Shown here one piece after another: positions 11,590 to 37,747 of a stretch of DNA of 64,000 bases (position 1 is the stretch's first letter; the number at the start of each line of letters is the position of its first letter). The notes beneath the pieces are model-generated. The model did no database searches. It had not been told where the DNA came from and saw only the letters and a list, made by a program, of their open reading frames with translations. This DNA comes from a virus (taxonomy: Duplodnaviria > Heunggongvirae > Uroviricota > Caudoviricetes), in the IMG/VR virus record IMGVR_UViG_3300034061_003277, positions 64,479-128,478 of that record. One strand, 5' to 3'. The translations under genes were made by a program, and so were the position numbers.

Positions 11590-12306
11590 ATGGAAAAACA
11601 AATCAACGAGCAATTCCTCAAAATGCAAAAACTTGCAGGAGTAATTACTGAGTCTCAATATGCTAATAAAATAAATGAGATGAGCGTAGATGATGATCTT
11701 CAAATGGAAAAAGCATGGAAAGCTACACCAGAAGAAGAAAAAATAGACATTCTCGTACCTTACACAGACGACGGGGATGTAAAACCTTTTCTTAATCTAT
11801 CAATAGGTGAAATGCCATCTGATATGAGCAAGGCTGTAAAAGATTTTTTAAATGAGCCTTTCTCAGCAGGTAATCCTAATGCATACACAGATGATATCTA
11901 CAATTATGGTGGTGAAATGGATGATATGGGATTTGATGATGACACATTTTATGAGTCTGAAAAACCTAAAAATAAGAAAATGTCTAAAACTGAGTTAAAA
12001 GAAGCTATTCGTAAAGAAATTATGGCTGCTTTGACTGAAGATGGAATAGACTTAGAAGAAGCTAAAAAAGACGAAGAAGAAGAGGAAGTAACATTAGATG
12101 CTGAAGAAACTGAAACAGACGACACAGCAGAAGATACAACCGATGATTCTATGGGTGATGGTAACGGATCAACTGATGAAGTACAACAAGACTTAACAGC
12201 CGCGTTAAACTCAGCTAAACAATTAGGAGATAAAAAACTTGTAAGACAAATTGGTAATGCTCTTACTTATTTTACAAGACAACAAATCTCTACTGAAGAA
12301 GTATAA
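11590..12306 (+). CDS. Acidic hypothetical protein with scaffold-like MQKLAG motif
   Basis: Start reassigned to ATG 11590 (late motif at 11570; upstream space taken by the Zn-ribbon gene); NEQFLKMQKLAGVITE. Confidence 0.7.
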   Translation: MEKQINEQFLKMQKLAGVITESQYANKINEMSVDDDLQMEKAWKATPEEEKIDILVPYTDDGDVKPFLNLSIGEMPSDMSKAVKDFLNEPFSAGNPNAYTDDIYNYGGEMDDMGFDDDTFYESEKPKNKKMSKTELKEAIRKEIMAALTEDGIDLEEAKKDEEEEEVTLDAEETETDDTAEDTTDDSMGDGNGSTDEVQQDLTAALNSAKQLGDKKLVRQIGNALTYFTRQQISTEEV

Positions 12307-12324
12307 CCCCTAAAAATAAAATAT

Positions 12325-12495
12325 ATGAAACAAGAGTTATTTGAACAAATGCAAACTTTGTGGAATGAGTTAGTGGAAAACCATAACGAGACTACAAAAG
12401 CAGCAGCAGGTCGCGCTAGAAAAGCAGCTAGTAACCTCAAAAAAGTAATTGCAGCTTATAATAAAGCATCAGTTGCTGAAGGTAAAACTAAATAA
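12325..12495 (+). CDS. 56-aa histone H1-like Hc1-family small basic protein (not in ORF track)
   Basis: MKQELFEQMQTLWNELVENHNETTKAAAGRARKAASNLKKVIAAYNKASVAEGKTK; KAAAGRARKA core resembles the Hc1 N-terminal domain. Confidence 0.65.
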   Translation: MKQELFEQMQTLWNELVENHNETTKAAAGRARKAASNLKKVIAAYNKASVAEGKTK

Positions 12496-12510
12496 GTATA
12501 CCTAAACTAA

Positions 12511-12545
12511 AAGATACGGGGGGTGTAAAATACCCCCCATCTTTA
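12511..12545 (+). terminator. Intrinsic terminator-like hairpin
   Basis: aagat..GGGGGGT-gtaaaat-ACCCCCC-atcttt. Confidence 0.65.
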
Positions 12546-12559
12546 TAAAAATAAACGTC

Positions 12560-13264
12560 ATGCCGTATATTAGAAAGGGAAAATGTGTTTATAATAAAGA
12601 AACTGGAGAAAAAAAAGGATGTTCTTCATCTATCGAAAAAGCTAAAAGATATATGAAGGCGTTGTATTCTTCTGAAATTAAAGAATATTTAGACAATAAA
12701 GACGCCTCATCTAACTTATCAGATAAAGAAACAGATCTAATCAACTACTATTATCAAAGCATAGTTGGTAAAAATCATAAAGAGTTATTTAAGAACTACG
12801 GTCCTGAAGCTGATCAAGTTGCATATTACAGCGCAGTAGATAGAGCTAAAAATAAACTTAATAAGATGAATAAAAAAGAACTTAAAGAAATAATAAAAGA
12901 TGTTTTAAATAGCAACAAATCTAAAAAGGATCAAGACGGTGATGGAGATAACGATTTTGCAGATGTGATGGTATCTCGTATGATGGCATCTGGTAAAAGT
13001 AAAGAAGATGCTGTAAAAGCCACTAAAAACAAAAAATATAATAAAGAATCTTTAGGAGAAGGAGGAGATGGAAGAACTGAAAATTATATGTTTTTTAGTA
13101 ATTTAAAACAAATGAAGCGTCAAATTGAGATATTAATGGAAATGGATCCTACGATGGTAGATTCTATACTCCAAAATGGACATGACTGGGCAGATGATCA
13201 TATAACTGCTGCTAAAGAAAATGTAGATCAAGTGTTTGATTTTTTAATGAATGAAACCAAATGA
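12560..13264 (+). CDS. Multi-module hypothetical protein
   Basis: N-terminal KGKCVYNK...GCS module, KELKEIIKDVL helix, DQDGDGDNDFAD EF-hand-like loop, C-terminal module after LGE. Confidence 0.65.
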   Translation: MPYIRKGKCVYNKETGEKKGCSSSIEKAKRYMKALYSSEIKEYLDNKDASSNLSDKETDLINYYYQSIVGKNHKELFKNYGPEADQVAYYSAVDRAKNKLNKMNKKELKEIIKDVLNSNKSKKDQDGDGDNDFADVMVSRMMASGKSKEDAVKATKNKKYNKESLGEGGDGRTENYMFFSNLKQMKRQIEILMEMDPTMVDSILQNGHDWADDHITAAKENVDQVFDFLMNETK

Positions 13265-13785
13265 CCAAGAAAGAACTAATAGAAAAAATTAAAACTGTTA
13301 TCAAACAAGTTTCCGACTCAAGCGAATCATCAGCTTCGTCTCAAGAAATAAATTTAGATACTGTTACTCCTCCTATATCATTTGATGCTGGGAGATTTCC
13401 TATTTTAAGTAGATTCCCACCTTTAAAAGACATTTTAATAGATTTATTGACAGATCAATATGAGTCTTTTATTGAAGAAATCCAGTGGACTGCTCCTAGA
13501 CCTACTACTCTTAAAATTATATTAAATAATGGGCAGAGTTTTTACCTTACCCATACTGATAGATCTTGGATTGCTAAAGTAGAAGGCAAAAAATATTATT
13601 TACTAAACCTCCCTGAAGAAGAACGGGCGGCTGAGGCCATAGCACGTATATTATCATACGCTTGGGCATCAGAACCAGAAAAAGAACCTGAAGGTGGAGA
13701 GGAAACATCCCCACCAGCAGAAGAAACACCTGAACCTGAAGAAGAAGCCCCAAAACCTGAAGAAGAAATACCAGCTGAAGTATAA
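13261..13785 (+). CDS. Hypothetical protein with acidic P/E tail
   Basis: ORF overlapping previous stop; KKELIEKIKTVIKQ helix. Confidence 0.65.
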   Translation: MTKKELIEKIKTVIKQVSDSSESSASSQEINLDTVTPPISFDAGRFPILSRFPPLKDILIDLLTDQYESFIEEIQWTAPRPTTLKIILNNGQSFYLTHTDRSWIAKVEGKKYYLLNLPEEERAAEAIARILSYAWASEPEKEPEGGEETSPPAEETPEPEEEAPKPEEEIPAEV

Positions 13786-14633
13786 TGAAAAAGAACATTA
13801 AAGAAATATCACCATCAGTTATAGCTAATATAAAATTGAATCCTACATTAAGGAATGAATTTGTTAACTCTCCTGCTAATAGCGATGAAAGTCTTGAATT
13901 AGAAGACATTATACGTGATATATTAAGCGAAAAAGGATTATCTGAAGATGATATCGAAACATATATGGATATCTTATATATAGAACGTAATAGTAATATA
14001 CAAGGTGAAGTTCCATTAAGTGAAGTTGATTTAGGTAGGATTAAACAAATGTTAAAGACAAACTCACAAGTTGAGTTTAAAAATGATCCTAAAATATATT
14101 ATGTTAAAAATATCTCCCCAGACGGAGTTAATGTATTTGTAACATTAAATGGGCTACAAACATATAGAAAAAGTTTAAAAAATCTTATTAAAATCGATAC
14201 TAAAATGATTAATGAAGAAAATGACACTAACACAAGACCTTATCTTGATAAAAGAATAAGAGTATTTGTTTATAATTTTGGTGGGAAAGAAAATTTTGAA
14301 AAAACACAAGCTATCCTTAGAGACAATAATGTAGAATTTGAAAAAAAGGTAGCTTCATTTGGTACTAAAGGAGCAGCTAATATAGTAGGACTTCTTATAA
14401 ACTCTAGCCTATACAAACCTACAGCTGCATCTCAGAGTTATTCATCAACTACCGCACCTGTAGCTGCATCCCAAAAGTATAAAAGCACAGTTGAAGTATT
14501 GAAAAATGACATATTAAAAGATCTTCCACAACTTAAATATAGAGAATTTAAAAGCATAACAGAACAAACATTACCTAAAGATCAACTAAAACAAATCATT
14601 AAAGAAGAGCTTATAAAAATACTAACCAAATAA
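13785..14633 (+). CDS. Hypothetical protein, candidate internal head protein
   Basis: LEDIIRDILSE and C-terminal QLKQIIKEELIKILTK helices. Confidence 0.65.
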   Translation: MKKNIKEISPSVIANIKLNPTLRNEFVNSPANSDESLELEDIIRDILSEKGLSEDDIETYMDILYIERNSNIQGEVPLSEVDLGRIKQMLKTNSQVEFKNDPKIYYVKNISPDGVNVFVTLNGLQTYRKSLKNLIKIDTKMINEENDTNTRPYLDKRIRVFVYNFGGKENFEKTQAILRDNNVEFEKKVASFGTKGAANIVGLLINSSLYKPTAASQSYSSTTAPVAASQKYKSTVEVLKNDILKDLPQLKYREFKSITEQTLPKDQLKQIIKEELIKILTK

Positions 14634-14639
14634 ATTCCT

Positions 14640-15997: not shown

Positions 15998-15998
15998 T

Positions 15999-16706: not shown

Positions 16707-16711
16707 TCAAT

Positions 16712-17116: not shown

Positions 17117-17120
17117 TAAT

Positions 17121-17372: not shown

Positions 17373-17629
17373 GACCTTACACAGATATAGAAGTTACAGA
17401 TAAATATATTATTCGTGAATTTAGCGAAAATATAGATCCTATTGAATTGATGTGGCATAGAGATAATGAACATCGCACTGTAGAAATTGTAGGAAAAACA
17501 GACTGGAAATTACAACTTGAAAACCAGTTACCAACTTCTATGGATTCTCCAATATTTATTCCTAAACATGAGTGGCATCGTGTTATTAAAGGGACCGGCA
17601 CTTTAAAATTGAAAATTTATAAATCATGA
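17369..17629 (+). CDS. Cupin-fold protein
   Basis: WHRDNEHR...IPKHEWHRVIKG His pattern of cupins. Confidence 0.6.
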   Translation: MRPYTDIEVTDKYIIREFSENIDPIELMWHRDNEHRTVEIVGKTDWKLQLENQLPTSMDSPIFIPKHEWHRVIKGTGTLKLKIYKS

Positions 17630-20043
17630 TACAACCTCTTAACGAGCAGTTTGTTCGTATGCAAAAATTAGCAGGTGTTAAATCTACTAATATAAAATAT
17701 AATAAAGTCTTAGAAGGCATTAACATATATTCCCAAATAATGGGGTATAATATCCTAATTACAGAAGCAGATGGTGCCAAAACTAAATCTGTAGATAGTA
17801 AAGCTCAAGTTTGGTTTCAAGGTTTAGATGCTGTCTATAATGCTTTAGATTCTCAAGAGAAAGAAGAATTTGAAAAAGCATTCAAAAAAGCTATTGAAGG
17901 AATACAAGACCAAAATCTATCTCCAGATGAAGTAAAACAAGCTTTAAACCAAAATTTATCAGAGGCAGACGAAGAAAATCCTAATAAATCAGGCTATAAA
18001 TTCATGGCTCCTTTAAATAAATTCTTAGATTCAACCTCTGGGAAGATAAGTAAAGTAATTTTAGCTTTAACAATAGGTGCCGCTATTTTAGCTCCTAAAA
18101 TTGGTAATACTATAAAAGCACTCACACCTGACCAAGTTACTACTATATCTCATAATGTTGATATAGATCAAATTGGTGGTGGAGATGATAAAACAGTATC
18201 TTGGGATGACGCTAAAGCTGTTGGAGCTAACGACGGTGAGGGTAACTCATTACAAGACTTAGAAGATGAAAAAAATTCTTCTACTGAATTTGTTAAGTTT
18301 GAATACGGTAAAGGAAGTGAAAGTGGAATAGCACCTGAAGGTGATAAAGTTATAGATGATATAGCAACCCAGTTGCAAACATTAGACAATGCTGGAGGTG
18401 GTGAAGTCACTATAGATATAGACGGAGAAGCCTCAAACACAGGAAACGGCTCAGACACCCCAGATGATGGTGAAGGTTCATTAGCAGATAATAGGGCTGA
18501 GACAGTTAAAGCTAAAATCCAACAAAAAGTTGACCAATTAGGTTTAAAAAATATAAAAGTCAATGTAACCGCAGATGACACTCCAGATGATCATTATAAA
18601 ACTTTAAAGAAAACATCTAAAAAAGACGGGAATAAAGGAGCAGGAGCATTAGTTACTGTAACTGGTGATGTAGAATCTACAGAAACTACCACAACCCCAG
18701 ATGAGTTCGATAAAGACTTTAACCCAGCATTTAAAAGATGGGGTTGGGATTTCTCAAGAAAGAAAACAAATGAAAAACCAACAGACCAAGAAGAACCATC
18801 AGACGAAGAGTTACCAGACGAAGAAACACCAAAAACATCACCAAACACATCTGATAAAACTGGAGTAAAACTTCCCCCATTAGATATGTCTGACGTATCT
18901 AGTGAAAAGGCTACTCCTATCAAACCTACTCAAGTTAAACAAGATGTCACTAGTTTATCTAAACTAAACAGAAATGGACAAATAGCAATGGTTTTATCTC
19001 GTATGAGTCCTAAACTTAATATTTTTACACAATTAGGCAAAGATACCATTACTAGCCTTTCAGATAATGACTTTAAAAAAGTACAGGATAGTAATGCCCC
19101 AGAAACTGCTAAAAAATTAGCTAAACTTATCCCAAACCTTAGAAAATCACCAGATTCATTTCTGAAAAAAATATCTGCTCTTACTGGTGTTGAGTTGGCT
19201 CCAAGAGCTAAAGCAGTTGCTACTAAACCTGGAGCCAACACACAAGCCCCAATTACACAAGTAACTGAAGCTCAAATTTATTTACAAGAGGCAGCTATTG
19301 ATGATTTATTTAGTGAATTGGGAATAACACCTGAAGAAATTAAAGCTAACAGAGTAGCTATCATAGCATTATTAGGAAGTATGTATGCTGCGGAAGGAAA
19401 TACAGATGTTAGTATTGTAGATCCTTCAAAACTTTCTAAACAAGAACAAAAAGAACTTCAAGGTATGGGGTTTGCACCTCAAGATGGGGGCAACTATGTT
19501 TACCTACAACCAGGAGAAACAAAGTCGCAAGCTTATGATAGATCTCAAAAGAATACTAAAGACCAACCTGATGCAAATAAAATAGGCGCTGAAATAGGAA
19601 AAAGAAAAGATATACAGCGATACCTTAAATTAATTAATAAAAAAGATGAGCTTAAAGATCTAACTACAGGCATTATAGGTATAATTGATCCAAATTTAAT
19701 TAAAGACAAAGGAAAATTACGAAGCATAATGTTTGGTATGAGAAATAGAATTACAGAGGAAGAAAAAGATGCTTCAACAGCTATTCAAAATATTCTTAGA
19801 AATCCTACTTTAGTAACTCGTTTTAAAAATATTAACACTGTTGAAGAAGCCATACAAGTCATTCTACGCGAAATAATACCATACCTAAACCCAGATTTCT
19901 TAAAAAGAACATCAGAAATTAGAGGAGCTATCGTAGCCGCAGCTAATGAACTTACTAATGCTACTTCTAAAGATACTACTCAAACCCAACCAGTGAAAGA
20001 ATCATTTACAAGAATGCAAAAATTAGCAGGTGTAATTAAGTAA
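17626..20043 (+). CDS. 805-aa protein with hydrophobic helix, OmpA/MotB-like domain and MQKLAG motifs at both termini
   Basis: VILALTIGAAILA hydrophobic segment; FEYG...IDGEAS...SLADNRAETVK OmpA-like motif; NEQFVRMQKLAG and KESFTRMQKLAG. Confidence 0.6.
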   Translation: MIQPLNEQFVRMQKLAGVKSTNIKYNKVLEGINIYSQIMGYNILITEADGAKTKSVDSKAQVWFQGLDAVYNALDSQEKEEFEKAFKKAIEGIQDQNLSPDEVKQALNQNLSEADEENPNKSGYKFMAPLNKFLDSTSGKISKVILALTIGAAILAPKIGNTIKALTPDQVTTISHNVDIDQIGGGDDKTVSWDDAKAVGANDGEGNSLQDLEDEKNSSTEFVKFEYGKGSESGIAPEGDKVIDDIATQLQTLDNAGGGEVTIDIDGEASNTGNGSDTPDDGEGSLADNRAETVKAKIQQKVDQLGLKNIKVNVTADDTPDDHYKTLKKTSKKDGNKGAGALVTVTGDVESTETTTTPDEFDKDFNPAFKRWGWDFSRKKTNEKPTDQEEPSDEELPDEETPKTSPNTSDKTGVKLPPLDMSDVSSEKATPIKPTQVKQDVTSLSKLNRNGQIAMVLSRMSPKLNIFTQLGKDTITSLSDNDFKKVQDSNAPETAKKLAKLIPNLRKSPDSFLKKISALTGVELAPRAKAVATKPGANTQAPITQVTEAQIYLQEAAIDDLFSELGITPEEIKANRVAIIALLGSMYAAEGNTDVSIVDPSKLSKQEQKELQGMGFAPQDGGNYVYLQPGETKSQAYDRSQKNTKDQPDANKIGAEIGKRKDIQRYLKLINKKDELKDLTTGIIGIIDPNLIKDKGKLRSIMFGMRNRITEEEKDASTAIQNILRNPTLVTRFKNINTVEEAIQVILREIIPYLNPDFLKRTSEIRGAIVAAANELTNATSKDTTQTQPVKESFTRMQKLAGVIK

Positions 20044-27083: not shown

Positions 27084-27551
27084 ATGAATAAAGAATTTCT
27101 TAAAATGCAAAAAATTGCTGGTTTAATCACTGAAGGTCAATATAAAAATAAATTAAGCGAAATTATAGGCGACATTGATGACACTCCACACCCAGATGGA
27201 GATTTTGACCCAATGGATTATGCTGACGACTATACCCCACCAGCATATGAAGCCATTAATGATTTAATGGATTATATACGCCAAGGTACCGGAGTTCGCG
27301 GTCAAATAAAACCATACCGTTCAATCTCTTGGCTACCAGGAGTATCAGCAGAAGATGGAGATATGGATATGTTGACCTATAAAAAAGGAAAACAAGAAAT
27401 AGCAATCGGAGCAGATGATGTATATCAAGACCCAAATGATGAGAATTTTAAATCATGGGTAATTGACTCAAACGATCCTGATCTTGATTTTGGAGAATAT
27501 TTAACTTTTAATGAAGTAGTAGATGCTGTTTCAAATTGGTTAGAATCATAA
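27084..27551 (+). CDS. Acidic hypothetical protein with scaffold-like MQKIAG motif
   Basis: MNKEFLKMQKIAGLITEGQY; TATTTATT at 27052. Confidence 0.7.
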   Translation: MNKEFLKMQKIAGLITEGQYKNKLSEIIGDIDDTPHPDGDFDPMDYADDYTPPAYEAINDLMDYIRQGTGVRGQIKPYRSISWLPGVSAEDGDMDMLTYKKGKQEIAIGADDVYQDPNDENFKSWVIDSNDPDLDFGEYLTFNEVVDAVSNWLES

Positions 27552-28184: not shown

Positions 28185-28796
28185 ATGAAACAACTTAATT
28201 TATTAAGACAAATTATTAAAGAAACCATCGCTGAGATGGATATTGATGAAATGGCTCGTCCTCCTAAAGGTATATCTTTAGTAGACGACTGGAAAGAAAA
28301 ATTAGCCGATCTAAAATCAGCTGAAATGACAAGCCCAGAAGATGCTGTTTTAAAAAGTAAAATATACGGTAAGAAAGGTGAACTTATGAAAACCGTTAAT
28401 GATATTACTACAGCTATGTCTGAAAAAGACGGTTCATCAAAAGGAATGATGACTAAGCAAAATGTAGCTAACTTAACTAGCCCTAAAGGAGTTGGAGACA
28501 CAGCTGGTTTAGCTCAAACTTTTAAAGCATTAACAAAATTCGGAATCTTAGAACCATCATCAGGATATGTTCAAGCAGATGACGAAACTGGAGATATTAC
28601 TGGAGATTATGAATTCAAAGCAAAACCAAAATCAGAAAACCCTGGTGCTAAAGGTCGTCCAAGAGTTGTAGATCCTGGTGTAAAATCAATAGGAGAGAAA
28701 ATTGCTGCTAAATTCGCTAAAGGAATTACAGATTTCACAGATGAGGAAAAAGCATATATTATGAATCTTTCTAAGATGGCTAAATCTAAAAAATAA
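28185..28796 (+). CDS. Hypothetical protein, candidate internal head protein
   Basis: LLRQIIKETIAE leader; KGRPR AT-hook-like motif. Confidence 0.65.
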   Translation: MKQLNLLRQIIKETIAEMDIDEMARPPKGISLVDDWKEKLADLKSAEMTSPEDAVLKSKIYGKKGELMKTVNDITTAMSEKDGSSKGMMTKQNVANLTSPKGVGDTAGLAQTFKALTKFGILEPSSGYVQADDETGDITGDYEFKAKPKSENPGAKGRPRVVDPGVKSIGEKIAAKFAKGITDFTDEEKAYIMNLSKMAKSKK

Positions 28797-28811: not shown

Positions 28812-30392
28812 ATGAGTGAATCCCCAAACATTAGGGAGATAATTCGTGAAGAGTTTGTAAAGTGCGCCACTGATCCGGCGCACTTTATGAACAAATACTG
28901 CTTTATTCAACACCCACAAAGAGGTAGAATACATTTTAATCTTTATCCATTCCAAAGTAAAGTATTACATTTATGGAGAGATAATCCATATAGTATAGTA
29001 TTAAAATCACGCCAATTAGGTATATCAACACTAGCTGCTGGTTACTCTTTATGGCTTATGATGTTTCATAAGGACAAAAACGTATTATGTATAGCTACTA
29101 AACAAGAAACTGCTCGTAACATGGTTACGAAAGTTAAATTCATGTTTGACAACCTCCCATCATGGCTAAAAATACCAGCAGACGAAAATAATAAACTATC
29201 ACTACGTCTAAACAACGGATCACAAATTAAAGCCACATCTGCAAGTAGTGATGCAGGTCGATCAGAAGCAGTATCTTTGCTACTAGTCGATGAGGCAGCG
29301 TTTATTGAAGGAATTGGTGAGATATGGGCATCTGCTCAACAAACCTTAGCAACCGGTGGTGGAGCAATTGTATTATCTACTCCTTATGGTACTGGTAACT
29401 GGTTCCACCAAACATGGGTTAGAGCAGAAGCTCAAGAAAATGACTTTTTACCTATTAAATTACCTTGGTTTGTCCATCCTGAAAGAAATGAAGAATGGAG
29501 AAAAAAACAAGATGAATTATTAGGTGATCCTAGAATAGCGGCACAAGAGTGTGACTGTGATTTTAGTACATCTGGAGATATAGTATTCTATAGTGAATGG
29601 TTAGAATTTATTGGTCAAACAACTATTAAAGAACCATTAGAAAGAAGAGGAGCAGACCAAAATTTATGGATCTGGGAACCGGCTGATTATACACGAGATT
29701 ATTTAGTTACAGCCGACGTTGCTCGTGGGGATAGCAAAGACTTTTCAGCATTCCATGTTATAGACATAGCAACTAATACTCAAGTAGCAGAATATAAAGG
29801 ACAATTATCACCTAAAGAATTTGGTTATTTCTTAGTAGCTATAGCTACAGAATATAATCAAGCTCTATTAGCTGTAGAAAATGCTAACATAGGATGGGCT
29901 ACATTAGACTCAATACAAGAAAGAGGATATAGAAATCTATATTTTTCTCCTAAATCTGACACTAATGTTACAGCTGAGACATATTTTAACAAATTTGAAA
30001 ACCCAGACAATACTGTTCCTGGTTTTACAATGTCTATGAGAACAAGACCACTAGTAATTAATAAATTTAGGGAGTATATCGGCGATAAAAGCGTTACTAT
30101 ACAGTCTAAACGGTTACTAGAGGAAATGAAAGTATTTATATGGAAAAATGGTCGACCTGAAGCTCAATCGGGTTATAACGACGATTTAGTAATGAGTTTT
30201 GGCATAGCTATGTATCTAAGAGATACATCTTTAAAATTTAGACAGCAAAGTTTAGATCTTACACGAAATATGTTAAATAATATTACTTCAGCTAGGAATT
30301 CTTCTTTAGGTGCGTATAATACAGCGAGTCCAAATAACCCATATAATTTTAATGTTAATGGGCAACAGGAAGATTTAAATTGGTTATTTTAA
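28812..30392 (+). CDS. terL: Terminase large subunit (T4 gp17-like)
   Basis: KSRQLGIST, LLVDEAAF Walker B, STPYG coupling motif, nuclease ADVARG..DFS and DDLVMS. Confidence 0.95.
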   Translation: MSESPNIREIIREEFVKCATDPAHFMNKYCFIQHPQRGRIHFNLYPFQSKVLHLWRDNPYSIVLKSRQLGISTLAAGYSLWLMMFHKDKNVLCIATKQETARNMVTKVKFMFDNLPSWLKIPADENNKLSLRLNNGSQIKATSASSDAGRSEAVSLLLVDEAAFIEGIGEIWASAQQTLATGGGAIVLSTPYGTGNWFHQTWVRAEAQENDFLPIKLPWFVHPERNEEWRKKQDELLGDPRIAAQECDCDFSTSGDIVFYSEWLEFIGQTTIKEPLERRGADQNLWIWEPADYTRDYLVTADVARGDSKDFSAFHVIDIATNTQVAEYKGQLSPKEFGYFLVAIATEYNQALLAVENANIGWATLDSIQERGYRNLYFSPKSDTNVTAETYFNKFENPDNTVPGFTMSMRTRPLVINKFREYIGDKSVTIQSKRLLEEMKVFIWKNGRPEAQSGYNDDLVMSFGIAMYLRDTSLKFRQQSLDLTRNMLNNITSARNSSLGAYNTASPNNPYNFNVNGQQEDLNWLF

Positions 30393-30411: not shown

Positions 30412-32328
30412 ATGGCAGATACTAACATTTTTACCCGACTAAGACGATTATTCTCAACTGATGTAATAATTCGTAATGCCGGAGGAAACGAGTTAAAAGT
30501 AATGGATGTTAATACTATCCAAACAAGTGGAGAATACTCAAATAATTCTCTAATGGATAGATTTAATCGCATATATTCAACTAATAGCACATCACTTTAC
30601 GGAGCTCAATTAAATCTTAACTATCAGTATCTTCGCCCCCAATTATACTCAGATTACGATGCTATGGATACAGATGCGATTATCTCATCAGCATTAGATA
30701 TCATAGCAGACGAAAGTACATTAAAAAATGATATGGGTGAGGTACTTCAAATTAGAAGTAGTGATGAAGATATCCAAAAGATATTATACAACTTATTTTA
30801 TGATGTATTAAATATTGAATTCAATTTATGGTCTTGGGTTCGCCAAATGTGTAAATATGGTGACTTTTTCTTAAAACTTGAAATCACTGAAAAGTTTGGT
30901 GTATATAATGTTATACCATACACCGCTTATCATATTATGAGAGAAGAAGGATATGACAAAGCAGCACCAGCAGCAGTAAGATTCAAATATAGCCCAGATG
31001 GATATGCCGGAGGAAGTGGATATTATGGTACTCCAAACGCTTATGGTTCATACAATAATAACAAAGATGATAATTCTATCTATTTTGATAATTATGAGAT
31101 GGCTCATTTTCGTTTAATGACTGATGTTAACTATCTTCCATATGGTAGATCATATCTAGAACCTGCTCGTAAATTATTTAAACAATATGTTTTAATGGAA
31201 GATGCTATGCTTATTCATAGAATTGCTCGCGCCCCAGAAAAACGTATTTTCTATGTAAACGTTGGTTCTATTCCTCCAAATGAAGTTGAAAACTTCATGC
31301 AGAAGACTATTTCTTCTATGAAGAGAACACCTCTTATGGATCCTCAAACAGGTGAATATAATTTAAAATACAATCAACAAAATATGTTGGAAGATTTTTA
31401 TATTCCTATTAGAGGTAATGACCAAACAACTCGTATTGAACCTACAAAAGGTATGGAATATGATGGTATCACAGACGTAGTTTATTTAAGAGATAAATTA
31501 TTCGCTGCTTTAAAAGTACCTAAAGCGTTTATGGGTTACGAGAAGGATTTAACAGGTAAAGCAACATTAGCCGCCGAAGATATTCGATTTGCTCGTACAA
31601 TTGACCGTATCCAACGTATCATGCTATCAGAATTATATAAAATAGCATTAGTTCATTTATATACTCAAGGGTATAAGAGTGAAAATTTAACTAATTTTGA
31701 TTTAACATTAACTACTCCTTCTATCATATATGATCAAGAAAGAATAGCATTAATGAAAGAAAAAGTAGATTTAGCTCGCCAGATGATGGAAACTAAACTA
31801 TTACCTACCAATTGGATTTACGATAACATATTCCACTTAAGTGAGGATCAATATGATGAATATAGAGATTTAATCACACAAGATCAAAAGCGTACCTTTA
31901 GATTAAAACAAATAGAAAATGAAGGTAATGACCCAATGGAATCTGGTAAATCATATGGTACACCTCATGATCTAGCTTATCTATACGGTAAAGGCAGATA
32001 CGCAGGTATGGACGGAGGAGTACCAGCAGGATATGGTGAAGATTTAACACTAGGTCGCCCTAAAGAAAGAGCATCTGACATAGGTACTCAAGATAATGCT
32101 TTAGGCACAGACAGATTAGGAAATATAGGTATGAAGAAAGGAGACGATACAGGTGAAGATAAAAATATAGGAAATAATTTTAAAGGTAATTCACCTTTAG
32201 CGTTAGAAAATGCTCAAGTTTCATTTCTAAAAAATAGACAACTGTTTGAAAGTTTAGAAAAGAAAATAGTATTCGCACATCAACCTGAAGAGAAATCGTT
32301 ATTAGATGAATCTAATATAAAGGAATAA
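30412..32328 (+). CDS. gp20: Portal protein (T4 gp20-like)
   Basis: GRSYLE.ARK...LMEDAMLIHRIARAPEKRIFYVNVG, EDFYIP, LFAALKVPK motifs. Confidence 0.95.
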   Translation: MADTNIFTRLRRLFSTDVIIRNAGGNELKVMDVNTIQTSGEYSNNSLMDRFNRIYSTNSTSLYGAQLNLNYQYLRPQLYSDYDAMDTDAIISSALDIIADESTLKNDMGEVLQIRSSDEDIQKILYNLFYDVLNIEFNLWSWVRQMCKYGDFFLKLEITEKFGVYNVIPYTAYHIMREEGYDKAAPAAVRFKYSPDGYAGGSGYYGTPNAYGSYNNNKDDNSIYFDNYEMAHFRLMTDVNYLPYGRSYLEPARKLFKQYVLMEDAMLIHRIARAPEKRIFYVNVGSIPPNEVENFMQKTISSMKRTPLMDPQTGEYNLKYNQQNMLEDFYIPIRGNDQTTRIEPTKGMEYDGITDVVYLRDKLFAALKVPKAFMGYEKDLTGKATLAAEDIRFARTIDRIQRIMLSELYKIALVHLYTQGYKSENLTNFDLTLTTPSIIYDQERIALMKEKVDLARQMMETKLLPTNWIYDNIFHLSEDQYDEYRDLITQDQKRTFRLKQIENEGNDPMESGKSYGTPHDLAYLYGKGRYAGMDGGVPAGYGEDLTLGRPKERASDIGTQDNALGTDRLGNIGMKKGDDTGEDKNIGNNFKGNSPLALENAQVSFLKNRQLFESLEKKIVFAHQPEEKSLLDESNIKE

Positions 32329-33216: not shown

Positions 33217-33217
33217 T

Positions 33218-33727
33218 ATGTTAAGTGAAAAACTAAAAGCGGTAATACGATCTGTAGTAAAAGAGATGAGCGCCACTGGTACTGGTGCTTCATATACTAC
33301 TGGAACAGGTATTGCTACTGCTACACCTGTTGTTAAAAAGAAAAACACAGCTAAAAATGCTAGTCAATATTTTAAAGCAGGTTATAAATTAGTTGACTCA
33401 GAAAAACTGGCTAAAAACTCTAAAGCTATTGATACCAAAAAATTGTGGGTTAACGAAGAGTCGGACGCTAAATTTAATATAGACGACTATATTAGTGGTT
33501 TAAATATTGAAGATGAAAAACTTAAAAAACATATAGCTGGAAAGATCGGAGATTATGATCAAATAGAAGCCCAACTAAATGATTTAAAAGATTTATTAGT
33601 TAAAGCTAAATACGACACTATAAATTACTATAAAGAAAACCCATCATATGATATAAAATACAGTACTAGTACTGCTAAAGAATATTTAAATGATTTAATT
33701 GAACTTTTCCAACCTAAACAAAAATGA
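33218..33727 (+). CDS. Hypothetical head-module protein
   Basis: KLKAVIRSVVKE leader helix. Confidence 0.6.
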   Translation: MLSEKLKAVIRSVVKEMSATGTGASYTTGTGIATATPVVKKKNTAKNASQYFKAGYKLVDSEKLAKNSKAIDTKKLWVNEESDAKFNIDDYISGLNIEDEKLKKHIAGKIGDYDQIEAQLNDLKDLLVKAKYDTINYYKENPSYDIKYSTSTAKEYLNDLIELFQPKQK

Positions 33728-35442
33728 AAACAATACAAGAACAATACAACCTACTTAAAGAAGGTAAAGGTAATAAAGACGTTTTTATGAAGTCTGTACG
33801 TAACCTATTTCCTGAATATGTTAATCAATATACATCATATAATGATGCTGTTAATATTTTAAAAAGCAAAAGCGTTATTAGTGAAGGAATTGGAGGTTTA
33901 GTAACATCATCTAATAAAACTCCGGATTGGTTTTCTATCTTTAATGAGAATATGGACTCTCTTAAAGAAGCAAAAGCTGAAGAAAAGAAACCTACTAAAG
34001 ATGTAACTGATATGGAAACACGTGGTTTTGATTACAAAGATCCTAAAAATATTGATAATGTTTACGGACAAGAATTTTTAGTTGGATATTATGCTGAAAT
34101 GAAAGATCCTAAAAATGAGGACAAAAGTGTTGATGAATTAAAAGCTATTGTAGCTAAAAATTTAGCTAAAGATAATCAACATTATGTTAAAGACGGACAG
34201 TTTGGTGTTAAAGGATTAGGATATGAAGTTAAAGCTCCTGCTTTAGGTGAACCTAAAGAAGCAAAAGGCAAATATAAATCATCTGGAATGGAACCAGTTA
34301 AAATAACAGAATCTAAAGCAGATGATGAATTAGAAGAAATGATTCAAATTCGCCCACAAAAAGGTAGTGGTGGAAAACGTTTCATTCCTTCATTCCATAT
34401 GCTCCCTAAAGAAGCGGCTAACGCTTTCCCAGGACTTATTAAAATGGTTAACTCACCTGCAGGTGTAGAAATGTATATATCAGCTAAATTACCACCAGTA
34501 TTTGCCGCTATACATAGAGGTCGTCAAGATGTTCGTAATTTGCCTCCGATGCTTAAAAAAGTACAAGACAAATTATCAAACGAAATTATTAATTTAATTA
34601 AGAACAATTTTGATAATAAAACTGTTGTAGTAAACGGAGAACCAATGCATAAGGTAAATTTACCTATAGCTAAAGTAGAAAACGGAGACTACAAAATTAC
34701 AACTCCATTCGCAGCTGGATTAACTGAATCTTATATGGATGATCTAGAAGCAGCTAAAAAAGAAGCACAAGAGAATTCTAAAGAAGGATATGTTCAGCAT
34801 GTAAACAAAACTGATAACGGATATGAAATATCTGATTGGTACGATAGTGATACTACAGTATATAGCTATGAGAACGGTGAAGAAATTAATAACCGTGAAG
34901 ATATGTTTATGGATGATGAGTTTGCTAATGATTTAGATAATTATGATGACGACATGTATGATCAAAGTTATCAATGGGATGATGAAAACCCAGATTTAAG
35001 AGATTTAGGTGCTAATCTAAGTATGTATGAGCAAAAGTTTCGTTCAATAATTTCACAGCTTATCAAAGAAGAACTTGATATGAAATATATTGAAGAAGTT
35101 GGTGAAGATGCTAAAAATAAAGCAATGCGTGTTAAAATTGATAAAGAAATAAACATGCGTAAGAAAAAACTTAAAGCATTAACTACTTTAACTGAACTTG
35201 AAGAAGATTCTGTTAATCCTAAAAAAGTAAAAGAATTAAAAAAGGAAATTGAGAAGTTAGAAGCTGCTAAGAAGAAATTAACTGGTGGAAAAAAAGAAAG
35301 CAAAGAAGTAGAAGAGGCATTATATGATTTAGACCCAACTAGCACAACAGACAAACCAGTAGTAGCTACCAGCTCGGCGGCGAAAGGCGCTATAACAAGA
35401 GCTGGAGGCAAAGAAATCCCAGGAACTAAAGACGCTAGATAA
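33724..35442 (+). CDS. Multi-module head-associated protein (572 aa)
   Basis: Many [IL]-x-E sites (LKE, ISE, ITE, LTE) separating segments; IISQLIKEEL helix. Confidence 0.65.
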   Translation: MKTIQEQYNLLKEGKGNKDVFMKSVRNLFPEYVNQYTSYNDAVNILKSKSVISEGIGGLVTSSNKTPDWFSIFNENMDSLKEAKAEEKKPTKDVTDMETRGFDYKDPKNIDNVYGQEFLVGYYAEMKDPKNEDKSVDELKAIVAKNLAKDNQHYVKDGQFGVKGLGYEVKAPALGEPKEAKGKYKSSGMEPVKITESKADDELEEMIQIRPQKGSGGKRFIPSFHMLPKEAANAFPGLIKMVNSPAGVEMYISAKLPPVFAAIHRGRQDVRNLPPMLKKVQDKLSNEIINLIKNNFDNKTVVVNGEPMHKVNLPIAKVENGDYKITTPFAAGLTESYMDDLEAAKKEAQENSKEGYVQHVNKTDNGYEISDWYDSDTTVYSYENGEEINNREDMFMDDEFANDLDNYDDDMYDQSYQWDDENPDLRDLGANLSMYEQKFRSIISQLIKEELDMKYIEEVGEDAKNKAMRVKIDKEINMRKKKLKALTTLTELEEDSVNPKKVKELKKEIEKLEAAKKKLTGGKKESKEVEEALYDLDPTSTTDKPVVATSSAAKGAITRAGGKEIPGTKDAR

Positions 35443-35444
35443 TA

Positions 35445-36059
35445 ATGAAACAAGTACTGATAGAAACACAATACTTTACTGCTAAGTCTATTAAGTTAGA
35501 TGAAGGAAAATCCCCAACAGGTAATCCTATTGTCCAAGGTATTTTAGCAACAGCTGAAGTTAAAAACGGCAATGGTAGATACTATTCTAAAGATTTATGG
35601 GAACGTGAGATTGATAAGTATATGGAAAATGTCACTGCTAATAGAGCATTAGGCGAATTAGACCACCCAGACTCATCTATTATCAATTTAAAAAACGTAT
35701 CTCATAACATTAAAAAGATTTGGTGGGACGGAGACAACGTGTTGGGAGCAATTGAACTTTTACCTACACCCTCAGGTAATATTTTAAGATCATTATTCGA
35801 AAACAACATACCAGTAGGTGTTTCATCTCGTGGTATGGGTTCATTAAAACAAATGGGTGATTTAATGGAAGTACAAGATGATTTTGAATTATTATGTTGG
35901 GATTTTGTTTCAACACCATCAAACCCAGGTTCATACATGGCTCCAGCTGGAGGAATGATGAATGAAGGTTTAAATGCTAAATCTTTTAGTAAATACTCTA
36001 AAGTTAACTCATTAATAACTGACATACTTTGTTCACAAGGTACTTGTCCCGTTTGGTAA
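35445..36059 (+). CDS. gp21: Prohead core protease (T4 gp21-like)
   Basis: NGNGRYY, ALGELDHP, GVSSRGMGS, WDFVSTPS motifs. Confidence 0.95.
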   Translation: MKQVLIETQYFTAKSIKLDEGKSPTGNPIVQGILATAEVKNGNGRYYSKDLWEREIDKYMENVTANRALGELDHPDSSIINLKNVSHNIKKIWWDGDNVLGAIELLPTPSGNILRSLFENNIPVGVSSRGMGSLKQMGDLMEVQDDFELLCWDFVSTPSNPGSYMAPAGGMMNEGLNAKSFSKYSKVNSLITDILCSQGTCPVW

Positions 36060-36063
36060 AACT

Positions 36064-36510
36064 ATGAAAAAATTACAATTAAAACAAATCATCAAAGAAG
36101 AACTAAAAAAAGTTTTAAAAGAAGCTTCATCTTCAGAATTCGCATCAATTGAGTCAGCATTAAATGATTTTTATGATTCTTATCTCGCTAAAGATCTTAG
36201 ACTAAGTAAAGAAATTACTTCTGAGGAAAGAATTAAAAGACTTGAATCGTTTATAAATGTATTAAAATCATATATTGGTAAACTTAATAGCGGCATTGAA
36301 GAAGAAAATTTCTGGATTGATAAAGCTAAAAATATTACAGAATCTGATGAAGTATTAACTTACGATGAATTATTTGCCAAATACAACCCAGAAGATGGAC
36401 CAGCTTTCTTAGATGGTTTGGAAGATGAACCTGGTTTTAAATTATTACCATCTGAAAAGCGAAGATATTTAGTTAAATGGTTAGAACATCAAAAAAGAAT
36501 GGATAGATAA
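36064..36510 (+). CDS. Hypothetical protein, candidate internal head protein
   Basis: MKKLQLKQIIKEELKKVLKEA leader. Confidence 0.65.
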   Translation: MKKLQLKQIIKEELKKVLKEASSSEFASIESALNDFYDSYLAKDLRLSKEITSEERIKRLESFINVLKSYIGKLNSGIEEENFWIDKAKNITESDEVLTYDELFAKYNPEDGPAFLDGLEDEPGFKLLPSEKRRYLVKWLEHQKRMDR

Positions 36511-36538
36511 CCTCTCCTAAAATAGTATTTTAGGATTG

Positions 36539-36568
36539 ATGCCTCTCGAAAGAGAGGCATTTCTTTTT
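36539..36568 (+). terminator. Intrinsic terminator
   Basis: ATGCCTCTC-GAAA-GAGAGGCAT followed by ttcttttt. Confidence 0.8.
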
Positions 36569-36599
36569 CATCCATGTGCATTTTTAAAGAATCCTCATA

Positions 36600-36709
36600 T
36601 ATGTATATTAGAATATACTGCTCATCTATGCAGTATCTATTAACTAACTATCTATTACGTTTCTTAATAAACGTATTTCCAAAACAAATTAATTGAGGAG
36701 AAAAACAAA
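36600..36709 (+). promoter_or_regulatory. Late-promoter variant (TATGTATA) and structured 5' leader of the scaffold-capsid operon
   Basis: Hairpins 36615-36636 and 36656-36675; GAGGAG at 36695-36700, 9 nt before ATG. Confidence 0.5.
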
Positions 36710-37747
36710 ATGAGTAAAACCTTATTTAAAGAAGCAATTGCCGATGCTAGAGCCGTTAAAGAAACAGCTATAGAAAGTGCAAAGGCTGCACTTGAGGAAG
36801 CATTTACTCCACATCTTAAATCAATGTTCGCTGCAAAGTTAGAAACACTAGCTGAAAACGACGATTATTTAGGAGAAGAGGAAATGAAAGACGAGATGCA
36901 AGACGAAACCCAAAATGAAGCTGCAGAGATGGATCTTGAAGAAATCTTACGTGAACTAGCAGAACTAGAAGAATCTGAAAATTCAAACAAAATCGACGAA
37001 GAAGCCGATGAAGCGTTAGAAGAAGAAGAAACTGAAGGTATCTATGAAAACGAAGACAAAGAAGAAGAATCTGAAGAAGATTTTGACATTGAAGACCTAT
37101 CAGCTGAAGATCTTAAAGAACTTGTAGTTGATATTATGGTTGATTTAGGTTTAACTTCAGCTGAAGAAGCTGCTAAATTAAAATCTAAAGAAGCTGGCGA
37201 CGATGAAATGGAGATGGGTGATGATGAAATGGGTGAAGAAGAAGAAACTGAAACAGAGGTTGTTGACGAAATCGATCTTAACGAACTTCTTGCTGAAATC
37301 GAGCTTTTAGAAAAGAAAAACAAGAAAAAAGCTATGAAAGATGAAGAAGAGAAAGAGAAAGATGAAGAAGACAAAGAAACTAAAAAGTTGAAAGAAGATC
37401 TTCAAGAAGCTATGGATTCATTAAATGAATTGAAAAACGAATTAGATGAAGTTAATTTATTAAATGCTAAATTGCTTTACACTAATAAAATTTTCAAAGC
37501 TAAAAACTTATCTGAGACACAAAAAATAAAAGTATTATCAACATTTGATAAAGCGAGTTCTGTAAAAGAAGTTAAACTAGTATATGAAACTTTATCTGAA
37601 GGATTAACTACCTCAACTGAGAAAAAATCCCCAATTAAAGAATCATTAGGTTCAGCTTCAAAAGCAATGGGTATGGCCCCTAAAAAACCAATAATTGAAT
37701 CCAACGAAGTATTTGCACGTATGCAAAGATTAGCTGGAATTAACTAA
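36710..37747 (+). CDS. Prohead scaffolding protein (T4 gp22-like)
   Basis: Highly acidic coiled-coil immediately before the capsid gene; NLLNAKLLY..K.F motif; C-terminal FARMQRLAGIN. Confidence 0.85.
   Translation: MSKTLFKEAIADARAVKETAIESAKAALEEAFTPHLKSMFAAKLETLAENDDYLGEEEMKDEMQDETQNEAAEMDLEEILRELAELEESENSNKIDEEADEALEEEETEGIYENEDKEEESEEDFDIEDLSAEDLKELVVDIMVDLGLTSAEEAAKLKSKEAGDDEMEMGDDEMGEEEETETEVVDEIDLNELLAEIELLEKKNKKKAMKDEEEKEKDEEDKETKKLKEDLQEAMDSLNELKNELDEVNLLNAKLLYTNKIFKAKNLSETQKIKVLSTFDKASSVKEVKLVYETLSEGLTTSTEKKSPIKESLGSASKAMGMAPKKPIIESNEVFARMQRLAGIN

What the first reader, a model, noticed from the sequence alone, without database searches (positions are those of the whole stretch)
11590..37747. 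Scaffold C-terminal motif (FxxMQxLAG) reused by unrelated proteins: candidate capsid-addressing tag
Seen: the scaffold ends FARMQRLAGIN (about 37700-37747). The same motif opens the 11590 protein (NEQFLKMQKLAGVITE) and the 27084 protein (KEFLKMQKIAGLITE), and occurs at both ends of the 805-aa 17626 protein (NEQFVRMQKLAG; KESFTRMQKLAG). In 11590 and 27084 it is followed by ITE[SG]QY, an [IL]-x-E site. Known: scaffold C-termini bind the capsid protein inside proheads (P22, herpesviruses), T4 packages internal proteins via a short capsid-targeting sequence, and T4 gp21 cleaves after [ILV]-x-E. Inference: the phage uses a scaffold-mimic tag to load otherwise unrelated cargo into the prohead, and the protease then removes the tag.
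Basis: partly seen in the sequence, partly recalled or inferred. Interest (0 to 1): 0.85.

Follow-up and report, generated by a model that had tools for sequence, protein, structure and literature searches.

The report
Scaffold-tail peptide reused as prohead tag
A T4-like phage of Flavobacteria puts the conserved last dozen residues of its head-scaffold protein, always next to a head-protease cut site, on the ends of many unrelated proteins, which most likely addresses them into the assembling head; this has not been shown by experiment.

Summary
The peptide [FL]xx-MQ-x-[LI]AG occurs six times in the 140-kb genome, five of them in the window, against 0.003 expected. Every copy lies at a protein end.

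It is the near-invariant C-terminal tail of the scaffold in 78 of 78 relatives. Recognisable forms persist in Microcystis phage Mel-JY01, a 484-kb uncultured phage and Rhodothermus phage RM378.

In the immuto-like subclade the same peptide heads, or ends, many unrelated small ORFan proteins. About 1,168 cluster representatives at 50% identity carry the N-terminal leader.

An [ILVM]-x-E site, the T4 gp21-type cleavage motif, always lies between tag and protein body, after N-terminal tags and before C-terminal ones. The phage encodes a gp21-family protease.

An 805-residue protein is tagged at both ends. It carries a hydrophobic helix and an OmpA-like peptidoglycan-binding domain.

Best reading: a lineage-specific analogue of the T4 capsid-targeting sequence that copies the scaffold tail and is clipped off during maturation. 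The receptor (capsid protein or core), packaging and cleavage are all inferred.

This scan has noted T4-like capsid tags on other phage DNA, two of them with scaffold likeness. I class it as a new variant of a known kind.

The parts
36710..37747 (+). Scaffold protein, 345 aa. Acidic, and sits in the gp22 position between protease and major capsid protein.
   Evidence: Position and composition. Orthologs lie next to the MCP in 78 related loci. No Pfam or PHROG family. Only a 14-column likeness to T4 gp22.
37685..37744 (+). Scaffold C-terminal tail KPIIE|SNEVFARMQRLAGIN: a predicted protease site followed by the shared peptide.
   Evidence: R337, A342 and G343 are invariant and E330 of the PI[IV]E site is invariant. 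A tail with an [ILVMF]xE site 3-6 residues upstream of R is present in 76 of 78 orthologs, and directly abutting R in one more. Also seen in immuto, Mel-JY01, LR756508 and RM378.
37628..37645 (+). Second conserved [IV]-x-E site (SPIKE|S) in the scaffold C-terminal region.
   Evidence: E311 is invariant across 31-33 orthologs.
11590..12306 (+). Tagged acidic protein, 238 aa counted from the ATG at 11590.
   Evidence: Body homologs in relatives carry other N-termini. An ATATTTAT box at 11569 lies 21 nt before this ATG.
11605..11652 (+). N-terminal tag NEQFLKMQKLAGVITE|S.
   Evidence: HMM score 20.7 bits; coordinates.
17626..20043 (+). 805-aa protein tagged at both ends, with a hydrophobic helix (about aa 141-160) and an OmpA-like domain.
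   Evidence: Family of 19 homologs: 18 of the 20 sequences examined (the query, P0222 and 18 other homologs) keep the N-tag, and about 10 of 20 carry the C-tag.
17638..17679 (+). N-terminal tag LNEQFVRMQKLAGV. The next [ILV]xE site (VLE|G) is at 17704-17718.
   Evidence: HMM score 18.2 bits; coordinates.
18238..18735 (+). OmpA/MotB/Pal-like peptidoglycan-binding domain (aa 205-370).
   Evidence: AF2 model has pLDDT 71.5. All top 50 PDB matches are OmpA-like domains, prob 0.63-1.00 (0.96 or more for the top 20), TM up to 0.56. Pfam OmpA is below threshold: E 0.0089, 16.8 bits against a cut-off of 27.2. Atlas structure hits are nearly all OmpA (9 of 10 rows).
19990..20040 (+). C-terminal tag PVKE|SFTRMQKLAGVIK.
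   Evidence: HMM score 14.9 bits. In homologs it is appended after the conserved ...AANELTNA end, always with an [IVM]xE|S site.
27084..27551 (+). Tagged 155-aa ORFan protein.
   Evidence: No Pfam or PHROG family. An ATATTTAT box lies 33 nt upstream.
27084..27134 (+). N-terminal leader MNKEFLKMQKIAGLITE|G. This is the commonest form in metagenomes.
   Evidence: 117 cluster representatives share it. A profile search finds 1,168 representatives at E<=1e-3.
35445..36059 (+). Prohead protease of the T4 gp21 family.
   Evidence: Pfam Peptidase_S77 at 98.9 bits against a cut-off of 27. PHROG head maturation protease at 1.8e-54. The GELxHP and GVSSRGxGS motifs are shared with T4 gp21.
37776..39473 (+). 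Major capsid protein (gp23 family), the candidate receptor.
   Evidence: Pfam Gp23 at 254.9 bits; 57% identical to the immuto MCP.
37941..37958 (+). Conserved QLV[IV]E|x site closing the MCP N-terminal propeptide region.
   Evidence: L57, V58 and E60 are invariant in 31 MCPs. In the alignment with T4 gp23 the site lies in the N-terminal propeptide region, upstream of the shared mature core.

Best explanation
The peptide [NE]-x-F-x-[RK]-M-Q-K-[LI]-A-G-[ILV] is this lineage's prohead-addressing signal.

Its original home is the extreme C-terminus of the scaffold protein. There it most likely forms a short amphipathic helix that docks the scaffold to a conserved site inside the assembling shell, with the capsid protein the favoured partner. 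It is released when the gp21-type protease cuts the conserved PI[IV]E site just upstream.

In the immuto-like (Flavobacteriia phage) subclade the same peptide has been copied onto the N- or C-terminus of many otherwise unrelated proteins. These would then occupy the same site and be built into the prohead. Because an [ILVM]-x-E site always lies between tag and body, maturation would free the body inside the head.

What is shown:
- the shared peptide and its strictly terminal placement;
- the body-proximal cleavage-type site;
- modular gain and loss of the tag;
- the protease family;
- the conservation of the tail.

What is inferred: binding, the receptor, packaging, cleavage, and what happens to the cargo afterwards (injected with the DNA or expelled like scaffold).
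For: 1. The tail is the best conserved part of the scaffold. It is present in 78 of 78 orthologs, with invariant R, A and G. Forms of it are retained in Mel-JY01, LR756508 and RM378, the last at 35% MCP identity. In RM378 the scaffold body is no longer detectable by BLAST. A partner that conserved is unlikely to be the fast-changing scaffold body.

2. Placement is terminal. All six copies in the genome are at protein ends. In 2.2 Mb of related loci, 112 of 191 instances are N-terminal and 76 C-terminal; two of the other three end 12-13 residues before the stop.

3. The cut-site geometry is consistent. 239 of 242 N-tags have [ILVM]xE within 5 residues after LAG. C-tags have the site upstream: 77 of 78 scaffolds, and PVKE|SF, PMNE|SF, SINE|SF and GVKE|N in other proteins. 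The MCP propeptide carries conserved sites of the same type. T4 gp21 cuts after L/I-x-E (PMC9026906).

4. The protease belongs to the gp21 family.

5. The tag is modular.
- There are at least 62 BLAST-unrelated bodies among 222 sampled.
- 1,168 representatives at 50% identity carry the leader.
- In the 805-aa family the C-tag is present in about half of the homologs, appended after the same body end.
- The body of the 11590 protein has other N-termini in relatives.

6. Synonymous codon differences among the copies point to selection on the peptide.

7. There are precedents.
- The T4 CTS is a 10-19-residue propeptide that targets the internal proteins (IPs) to the core and is then removed by gp21, and both termini of T4 Alt are gp21-cleaved propeptides (PMC9026906, PMC5694885).
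- Herpesvirus scaffold C-termini bind the MCP and are cut off at the M site, and the protease shares that tail (PMC12474303).
- C-terminal helices of the P22, SPP1, phi29 and 80alpha scaffolds bind the coat protein (PMC11565965).

8. The doubly tagged 805-aa protein has a hydrophobic helix plus an OmpA-like peptidoglycan-binding domain and no signal peptide. This suits a protein delivered into the envelope from the virion.
Against: - There is no direct evidence of binding, packaging or cleavage. I found no virion proteome for immuto or any relative.
- The tagged genes are scattered among primase, exonuclease, dehydrogenase, HNH, ATPase and thymidylate-kinase genes, not in the head module. Their timing of expression is unknown.
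- The ATATTTAT box they share with the portal and sheath genes also precedes genes on the replication side.
- 87% of sampled bodies are acidic, with a median net charge of -0.13 per residue. Since the T4 internal proteins are basic (from memory), stable co-packaging with DNA is not obvious.
- Complete relatives with the same scaffold tail carry no tagged cargo (G002, Mel-JY01; RM378, whose diverged tail the model itself does not score, likewise shows none). Cargo tagging is therefore a subclade innovation.
- Tag and scaffold tail do not co-vary within a genome: immuto has W in the scaffold tail and M in its tags.
Confidence: 0.6

Rival explanations
1. The address function is the same but the receptor differs. 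The peptide is a scaffold-scaffold (core) association motif, or a portal-binding one. Tagged proteins would then co-polymerise with the core, as T4 CTS proteins are said to do, and would not bind the capsid protein.
For: The T4 CTS is described as targeting proteins to the scaffolding core, which forms before the shell (PMC3012670, PMC5694885). The scaffold N-terminal 45 residues and the C-terminal region around LNAKLLYTNKIFKAK are also conserved and could be the receptor.
Against: The tail outlasts recognisable scaffold-body similarity (RM378), which points to a more conserved partner. In other systems the C-terminal scaffold helices bind coat protein (PMC11565965, PMC12474303).
Confidence: 0.2
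2. The peptide is a docking or recognition element for the prohead protease. It would recruit substrates to the enzyme, or mark them for degradation, rather than address them to a structural site.
For: The peptide always lies next to an [ILVM]-x-E site. The gp21 cleavage motif alone is very short, and how the enzyme selects substrates is an open question (PMC9026906).
Against: The MCP has several conserved sites of the same type and no tag. The scaffold has a further conserved site about 20 residues upstream of the tail. In the 805-aa N-tag the nearest site is 13 residues away.
Confidence: 0.08
3. The peptide is a short linear motif for a hub protein that has nothing to do with head assembly, such as a chaperone, a sliding clamp or RNA polymerase. 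The scaffold would simply be one of its clients.
For: Terminal short motifs shared by unrelated proteins are typical of hub binding. The relative immuto encodes GroEL/GroES. The tagged genes sit among replication genes.
Against: This gives no reason for a protease-type site to lie strictly on the body side of the tag at either terminus. The motif does not resemble clamp-binding consensus sequences (from memory). Its strongest and oldest conservation is on the scaffold, at the position where scaffolds bind coat protein.
Confidence: 0.07
4. The repeat reflects conserved DNA or RNA, such as a recombination cassette or a translational operator at the start of genes, and not a protein signal.
For: The leader MNKEFLKMQKIAGLITE is almost identical across more than 100 different genes. 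Tandem pairs of tagged genes occur in some contigs. Exchange of cassettes probably does spread the tag.
Against: Synonymous positions differ among the six copies in the genome. The same peptide occurs at C-termini and on the scaffold, in different DNA contexts.
Confidence: 0.02

Closest known systems
Capsid targeting sequence (CTS) of phage T4 internal proteins IPI-III and Alt (Mullaney and Black 1996; reviewed in PMC9026906 and PMC5694885)
   Same: Both are short terminal propeptides shared by otherwise unrelated, fast-turning-over proteins. In both, the tag is immediately followed by an L/I-x-E site for a gp21-family protease. T4 Alt has gp21-cleaved propeptides at both termini, as the 805-aa protein here has tags at both ends. 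Both phages have a T4-type head module (gp20, gp21, gp23).
   Different: There is no sequence likeness to MKTYQEFIAE. Here the tag matches the scaffold's own conserved C-terminal tail, it is used at N- or C-termini with the cut site switching sides, and the cargo bodies are mostly acidic. The scale is also larger: about 1,168 representatives at 50% identity. In T4 the scaffold N-terminus (MLKEQLIAEA) only loosely resembles the CTS.
Herpesvirus scaffold/protease C-terminal tail and M-site (UL26 / UL26.5)
   Same: In both, a C-terminal scaffold tail binds the capsid protein and is cut off by the maturation protease just upstream. In herpesvirus a non-scaffold passenger, the protease, is loaded because it carries the same tail (PMC12474303).
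   Different: In herpesviruses the shared tail arises from nested in-frame genes and serves a single passenger. Here the tail has been copied onto many independent genes and also works in N-terminal position. The sequences are unrelated.
C-terminal coat-binding helices of phage scaffolds (P22 helix-turn-helix, phi29, SPP1, 80alpha) and engineered P22 scaffold-fusion cargo loading
   Same: A small C-terminal helical element is what holds the scaffold to the shell (PMC11565965). Fusing it to foreign proteins loads them into P22 procapsids (from memory).
   Different: Those scaffolds leave intact or are recycled. Natural reuse of the element on other phage proteins is not described for them, as far as I know.
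Encapsulin cargo-loading peptides
   Same: Both are short terminal peptides that address unrelated cargo to the inner face of an HK97-fold shell (from memory).
   Different: The consensus differs, encapsulins have no protease step and no scaffold, and the binding site here is unknown. The comparison is about how it works, not about membership.

Membership tests
T4-type capsid targeting sequence system | A short terminal propeptide shared by otherwise unrelated proteins of one phage | tested here: met
   Six copies in five proteins of this genome. At least 62 unrelated bodies in metagenomes.
T4-type capsid targeting sequence system | A prohead-protease site (L/I-x-E) between tag and mature protein | tested here: met
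   239 of 242 N-tags have the site. C-tags have it upstream. Only the presence of the site was tested, not cleavage.
T4-type capsid targeting sequence system | The phage encodes a gp21-family (Peptidase S77) prohead protease | tested here: met
   Pfam score 98.9 bits against a cut-off of 27. The His and Ser motifs are shared with T4 gp21.
T4-type capsid targeting sequence system | Sequence relationship to the T4 CTS (MKTYQEFIAE) | tested here: not met
   Direct comparison with ipI, ipII and ipIII shows no likeness. A different protein of this phage (33724) does start MKTIQEQYNLLKE.
T4-type capsid targeting sequence system | The tag is necessary and sufficient for packaging into proheads, and the tagged proteins are found processed in virions | not testable with these tools
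   This needs virion or prohead mass spectrometry and tag-fusion packaging assays. No proteome was found.
Scaffold C-terminal coat-binding tail (P22 / herpesvirus type) | Lies at the extreme C-terminus of the scaffold and is more conserved than the rest of the protein | tested here: met
Scaffold C-terminal coat-binding tail (P22 / herpesvirus type) | Binds the major capsid protein | not testable with these tools
   This needs a binding assay or cryo-EM of uncleaved proheads.
Scaffold C-terminal coat-binding tail (P22 / herpesvirus type) | A maturation-protease site just upstream of the tail (herpesvirus M-site layout) | tested here: met
   An [ILVMF]xE site lies 3-6 residues upstream of the invariant R in 76 of 78 orthologs and directly abuts it in one more. 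Cleavage itself was not tested.
T4 gp22 scaffold family | Detectable sequence or profile homology to gp22 | tested here: inconclusive
   hhalign probability 6.7%. Only KNLSETQKIKV against KDLTESQKEKV align. No Pfam or PHROG hit. Gene position and acidic composition fit.
OmpA-like peptidoglycan-binding domain (PF00691), in the 805-aa protein | Pfam gathering score | tested here: not met
   16.8 bits against a cut-off of 27.2, E 0.0089, covering model positions 6-94 of 98.
OmpA-like peptidoglycan-binding domain (PF00691), in the 805-aa protein | OmpA/MotB/Pal fold | tested here: met
   AF2 model with pLDDT 71.5. All 50 best PDB matches are OmpA-like domains, prob up to 1.00, TM up to 0.56.

The most novel reading that the evidence does not exclude
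Natural scaffold mimicry as the loading mechanism. Cargo proteins would compete with the scaffold tail for the same pocket on the inner face of the gp23-type capsid protein. That would make this a phage counterpart of encapsulin cargo-loading peptides. It works from either terminus, is erased by the prohead protease, and marks more than a thousand protein families of uncultured Flavobacteriia phages as virion-delivered. It would also suggest what the long-unknown receptor of T4-type capsid-targeting sequences is.
Probability: 0.35. Interest if true: 0.8.

Novelty: new variant of a known kind. Interest (0 to 1): 0.62.

Why it matters
The T4 capsid-targeting sequence has been known since the 1990s, but the reviews read here say only that it binds "the core" (PMC3012670, PMC9026906). 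In this clade the tag matches the scaffold's own conserved C-terminal tail. That gives a concrete, testable mechanism: competition for the scaffold-binding site.

A cultured relative is available for the tests. Flavobacterium phage immuto has gp067 as scaffold and gp083 and gp230 as tagged proteins.

If the reading is right, the proteins that a large group of abundant aquatic phages carry in their heads could be read directly from sequence. About 1,168 cluster representatives at 50% identity carry the tag, and none of the 21 checked against Pfam reached a family's gathering score except two carrying DUF6576 (function unknown). The tag would also be a ready-made, self-removing handle, usable at either end, for loading foreign proteins into T4-type heads.

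Tried and rejected
- Complex prediction of MCP (alignment A1) with the last 45 scaffold residues (A2) gave no verdict, score 0.00 in two runs. I do not count it for or against binding.
- Searching for the leader in proteins longer than 272 aa found none. Long tagged proteins surfaced only through the profile search and the 805-aa family search.
- Pfam and PHROG scans of the window's tagged proteins and of 18 metagenomic cargo proteins gave no family above threshold except DUF6576. Atlas look-ups of the 155-aa protein gave nothing usable.
- A back-translated pattern and the HMM found no extra copies in Mel-JY01, LR756508 or RM378.
- tblastn of the tag against 50,697 phage records found it only in the immuto phages.
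- The motif strings appear in none of about 8.4 million papers and preprints searched. No virion proteome for immuto or Mel-JY01 was found.
- Profile comparison of the scaffold with T4 gp22 and with PDB sequences was not significant.
- One T4 region fetch did not contain the ip genes.
- I found a second motif, FNLxxFLTENKLT, but rejected it as a multi-protein tag because there is one copy per genome, on one orthologous family.
- I did not attempt covariation between the tail and the MCP. There are too few independent lineages and the phylogenetic confounding is heavy.

Full report
**What the window is.** The window is bases 64,479-128,478 of a 140-kb IMG/VR phage record, estimated 82% complete. 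It carries a T4-type head module:
- large terminase, 28812-30392;
- gp20-type portal, 30412-32328;
- Peptidase_S77 (gp21-type) protease, 35445-36059;
- an acidic 345-aa protein in the gp22 position, 36710-37747;
- a gp23-type major capsid protein, 37776-39473.

The nearest cultured relative is Flavobacterium phage vB_FspM_immuto (MCP 57% identical). More distant relatives are Microcystis phage Mel-JY01, the 484-kb uncultured phage LR756508 and Rhodothermus phage RM378. The protease aligns with T4 gp21 and shares its GELxHP and GVSSRGxGS motifs.

**The observation.** A six-frame scan finds no further copy in the window. It finds a sixth in the genome, 15.2 kb upstream of the window, at the N-terminus of a roughly 125-aa ORF.

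By residue composition and by shuffling, 0.003 copies are expected. A 15-column HMM built from relatives separates the six copies (14.8-26.4 bits) from everything else (5.8 bits or less). The copies use different synonymous codons, so the peptide is what is conserved, not the DNA.

**The scaffold tail.** I recovered the gene upstream of the MCP from 80 related IMG/VR loci. All 78 scaffold orthologs end in ...PI[IV]E-[VS]-N-[DE]-x-[FV]-x-R-[MWF]-[QKR]-K-L-A-G-[IL], followed by at most five further residues. R, A and G are invariant, as is the E of the upstream PI[IV]E.

The tail survives well beyond this group:
- immuto gp067: ...SRWQKLAGIIK;
- Mel-JY01: ...ERMKKLAGIVK;
- LR756508: ...SRMQKLADIS;
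- RM378...LERIKRLAGL, although its scaffold body is no longer detectable by BLAST.

T4 gp22 ends differently. So the tail is an old, strongly constrained element of a large T4-like clade.

**Reuse on other proteins.** Counts for complete or near-complete relatives are as follows.

| Genome | Copies beyond the scaffold |
|---|---|
| This genome | five, on four proteins |
| G001 | four |
| G003 | one |
| G005 | one |
| immuto | two (gp083, gp230) |
| G002 | none |
| Mel-JY01 | none |
| RM378 | none (its own diverged tail is not scored by the model) |

Reuse is therefore a subclade innovation built on an older scaffold feature.

In public protein collections the leader MNKEFLKMQK[IL]AG[LIV]ITE[NGS]Q heads 117 cluster representatives of 85-272 aa. 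A profile of the leader finds 1,168 representatives at 50% identity with E<=1e-3, and nearly all of the best 150 start at or near residue 1 (130 at residue 1). Of 242 sampled proteins, 239 carry the tag within 30 residues of the N-terminus. Their bodies fall into at least 62 BLAST-unrelated groups among 222. At least 115 stretches of IMG/VR contigs carry the exact back-translated leader, some as tandem gene pairs. Of the 18 metagenomic cargo proteins scanned against Pfam, none has a characterised family; two carry DUF6576.

**Geometry of the cut site.** T4 gp21 cleaves after L/I-x-E (PMC9026906). Here an [ILVM]-x-E site always lies between tag and body.
- After N-terminal tags: LAG-[ILV]-I-T-E|, in 239 of 242. 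It is often followed by a second site, KLNE|, about nine residues later.
- Before C-terminal tags: 77 of 78 scaffolds; PVKE|SF, TMNE|SF, EIKE|SF and similar in the 805-aa family; PMNE|SF, SINE|SF and GVKE|N in other small proteins.

In 2.2 Mb of related loci, 112 of 191 instances are N-terminal and 76 are C-terminal. Two of the remaining three end 12-13 residues before the stop. The MCP N-terminal region has invariant sites of the same type, the last being QLV[IV]E60, in the N-terminal propeptide region upstream of the mature core that aligns with T4 gp23. This switch of side is what a removable address tag predicts, and it is hard to explain otherwise.

**Modularity.** The 805-aa protein has 19 homologs (including its own cluster) down to 33% identity. 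Of the 20 sequences examined (these plus P0222), 18 keep the N-tag. About half carry the C-tag, which is always appended after the same conserved body end. One 874-aa homolog has full tags at both ends.

The body of the 11590 protein recurs in relatives with other N-termini or none. One metagenomic 304-aa protein has a second, internal tag flanked by cut sites, which looks like a two-part polyprotein.

**What the cargo is.** The tagged proteins are mostly small (median 126 aa), acidic (87%) ORFans. The exception is the 805-aa protein.
- Residues 205-370 fold (pLDDT 71.5) into a domain whose 50 best PDB matches are all OmpA/MotB/Pal-type peptidoglycan-binding domains.
- Pfam OmpA is below threshold.
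- A hydrophobic helix precedes the domain.

A peptidoglycan-binding protein with a membrane helix, no signal peptide and head tags at both ends fits a protein delivered into the cell envelope from the virion. A role in tethering proheads to the membrane cannot be excluded.

**Context.** The tagged genes lie among primase, exonuclease, dehydrogenase, HNH, ATPase and thymidylate-kinase genes, much as the T4 ip genes lie among non-structural genes.

The tagged genes 27084 and 11590 have an ATATTTAT box 33 and 21 nt upstream. The same box lies 12-49 nt before about 29 plus-strand genes, including portal and sheath, but also before genes on the replication side. It suggests co-expression with structural genes and does not prove late timing.

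**Interpretation.** The most economical reading is a lineage-specific analogue of the T4 capsid targeting sequence (PMC9026906, PMC5694885, PMC3012670), derived from the scaffold's own C-terminal tail. The layout also matches herpesviruses: there the scaffold C-terminus binds the MCP, is removed at the M site, and is shared with the protease (PMC12474303). It also matches the C-terminal coat-binding helices of other phage scaffolds (PMC11565965).

I favour the capsid protein as receptor because the tail outlasts recognisable scaffold-body similarity, but the scaffold core or the portal remain possible. Binding, packaging and cleavage are inferences. The acidity of the cargo leaves open whether it stays with the DNA or leaves like scaffold.

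**Comparison and novelty.** The tag has no sequence likeness to the T4 CTS, and the motif string appears in none of the papers searched. It is a new variant of a known kind. Three things are new: the match to the scaffold tail, use at either terminus with the cut site switching sides, and the scale.

Earlier notes of this scan describe T4-like capsid tags in many other uncultured phages, two of them with a likeness to scaffold parts. I did not test those notes.

Noticed in passing
window 36064-36123 (N-end of the 148-aa protein between protease and scaffold); 14583-14630 (C-end of the 13785-14633 protein); about 11995 (internal in the 11590 protein): A second shared terminal peptide, QLKQIIKEEL-x-K-x-L-x-E. 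It also sits at the N-termini of two G001 proteins and one immuto protein. It may be a second address or propeptide class, ending in [ILV]-x-E.
   Followed up: partly
window 33724-33765 (start of the 572-aa protein upstream of the protease): This protein begins MKTIQEQYNLLKE|G. That resembles the T4 IPII/IPIII capsid-targeting sequence MKTYQEFIAE|A (five of the first six residues identical). The protease itself starts MKQVLIE|T, like T4 gp21 (LIE-9).
   Followed up: no
window, about 29 sites, e.g. 30392, 57651, 27051, 11569: The box ATATTTAT(A) occurs 39 times on the + strand and 11 times on the - strand of the genome. About 29 copies lie 12-49 nt upstream of start codons (portal, sheath, many structural genes, some replication-side genes). 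It is a candidate promoter class, reminiscent of the T4 late TATAAATA.
   Followed up: partly
L121:6118-6150 (T4 gp22) against L144 ipII/ipIII: The T4 scaffold gp22 starts MLKEQLIAE|A, loosely like the T4 CTS MKTYQEFIAE|A. This is a weak hint that likeness between cargo tag and scaffold terminus is more general. It may reflect only the shared IAE|A cut site.
   Followed up: partly
G002 about 143390 (-), G005 about 20195 (+), immuto 117658 (gp077, annotated PduO): Orthologs of the 11590-protein body carry a different N-terminus (FNLxxFLTENKLT, containing an L-T-E site) in place of the MQKLAG tag, and the G001 ortholog has neither. The N-terminal modules of this acidic family are swapped between phages.
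   Followed up: partly
P0136 (304 aa, metagenomic): This protein has one tag at the N-terminus and a second, internal tag (residues about 215-235) with cut-type sites on both sides. It is a possible two-part polyprotein or a recent gene fusion.
   Followed up: no
window 36710-37747 against T4 gp22 residues 181-194: The only profile match between this scaffold family and T4 gp22 is KNLSETQKIKV against KDLTESQKEKV, at a similar relative position. It may be a remnant of common origin.
   Followed up: no
window 28185-28235: The 203-aa protein just upstream of the terminase starts MKQLNLLRQIIKETIAE|M, another N-terminal leader ending in an I-A-E site.
   Followed up: no
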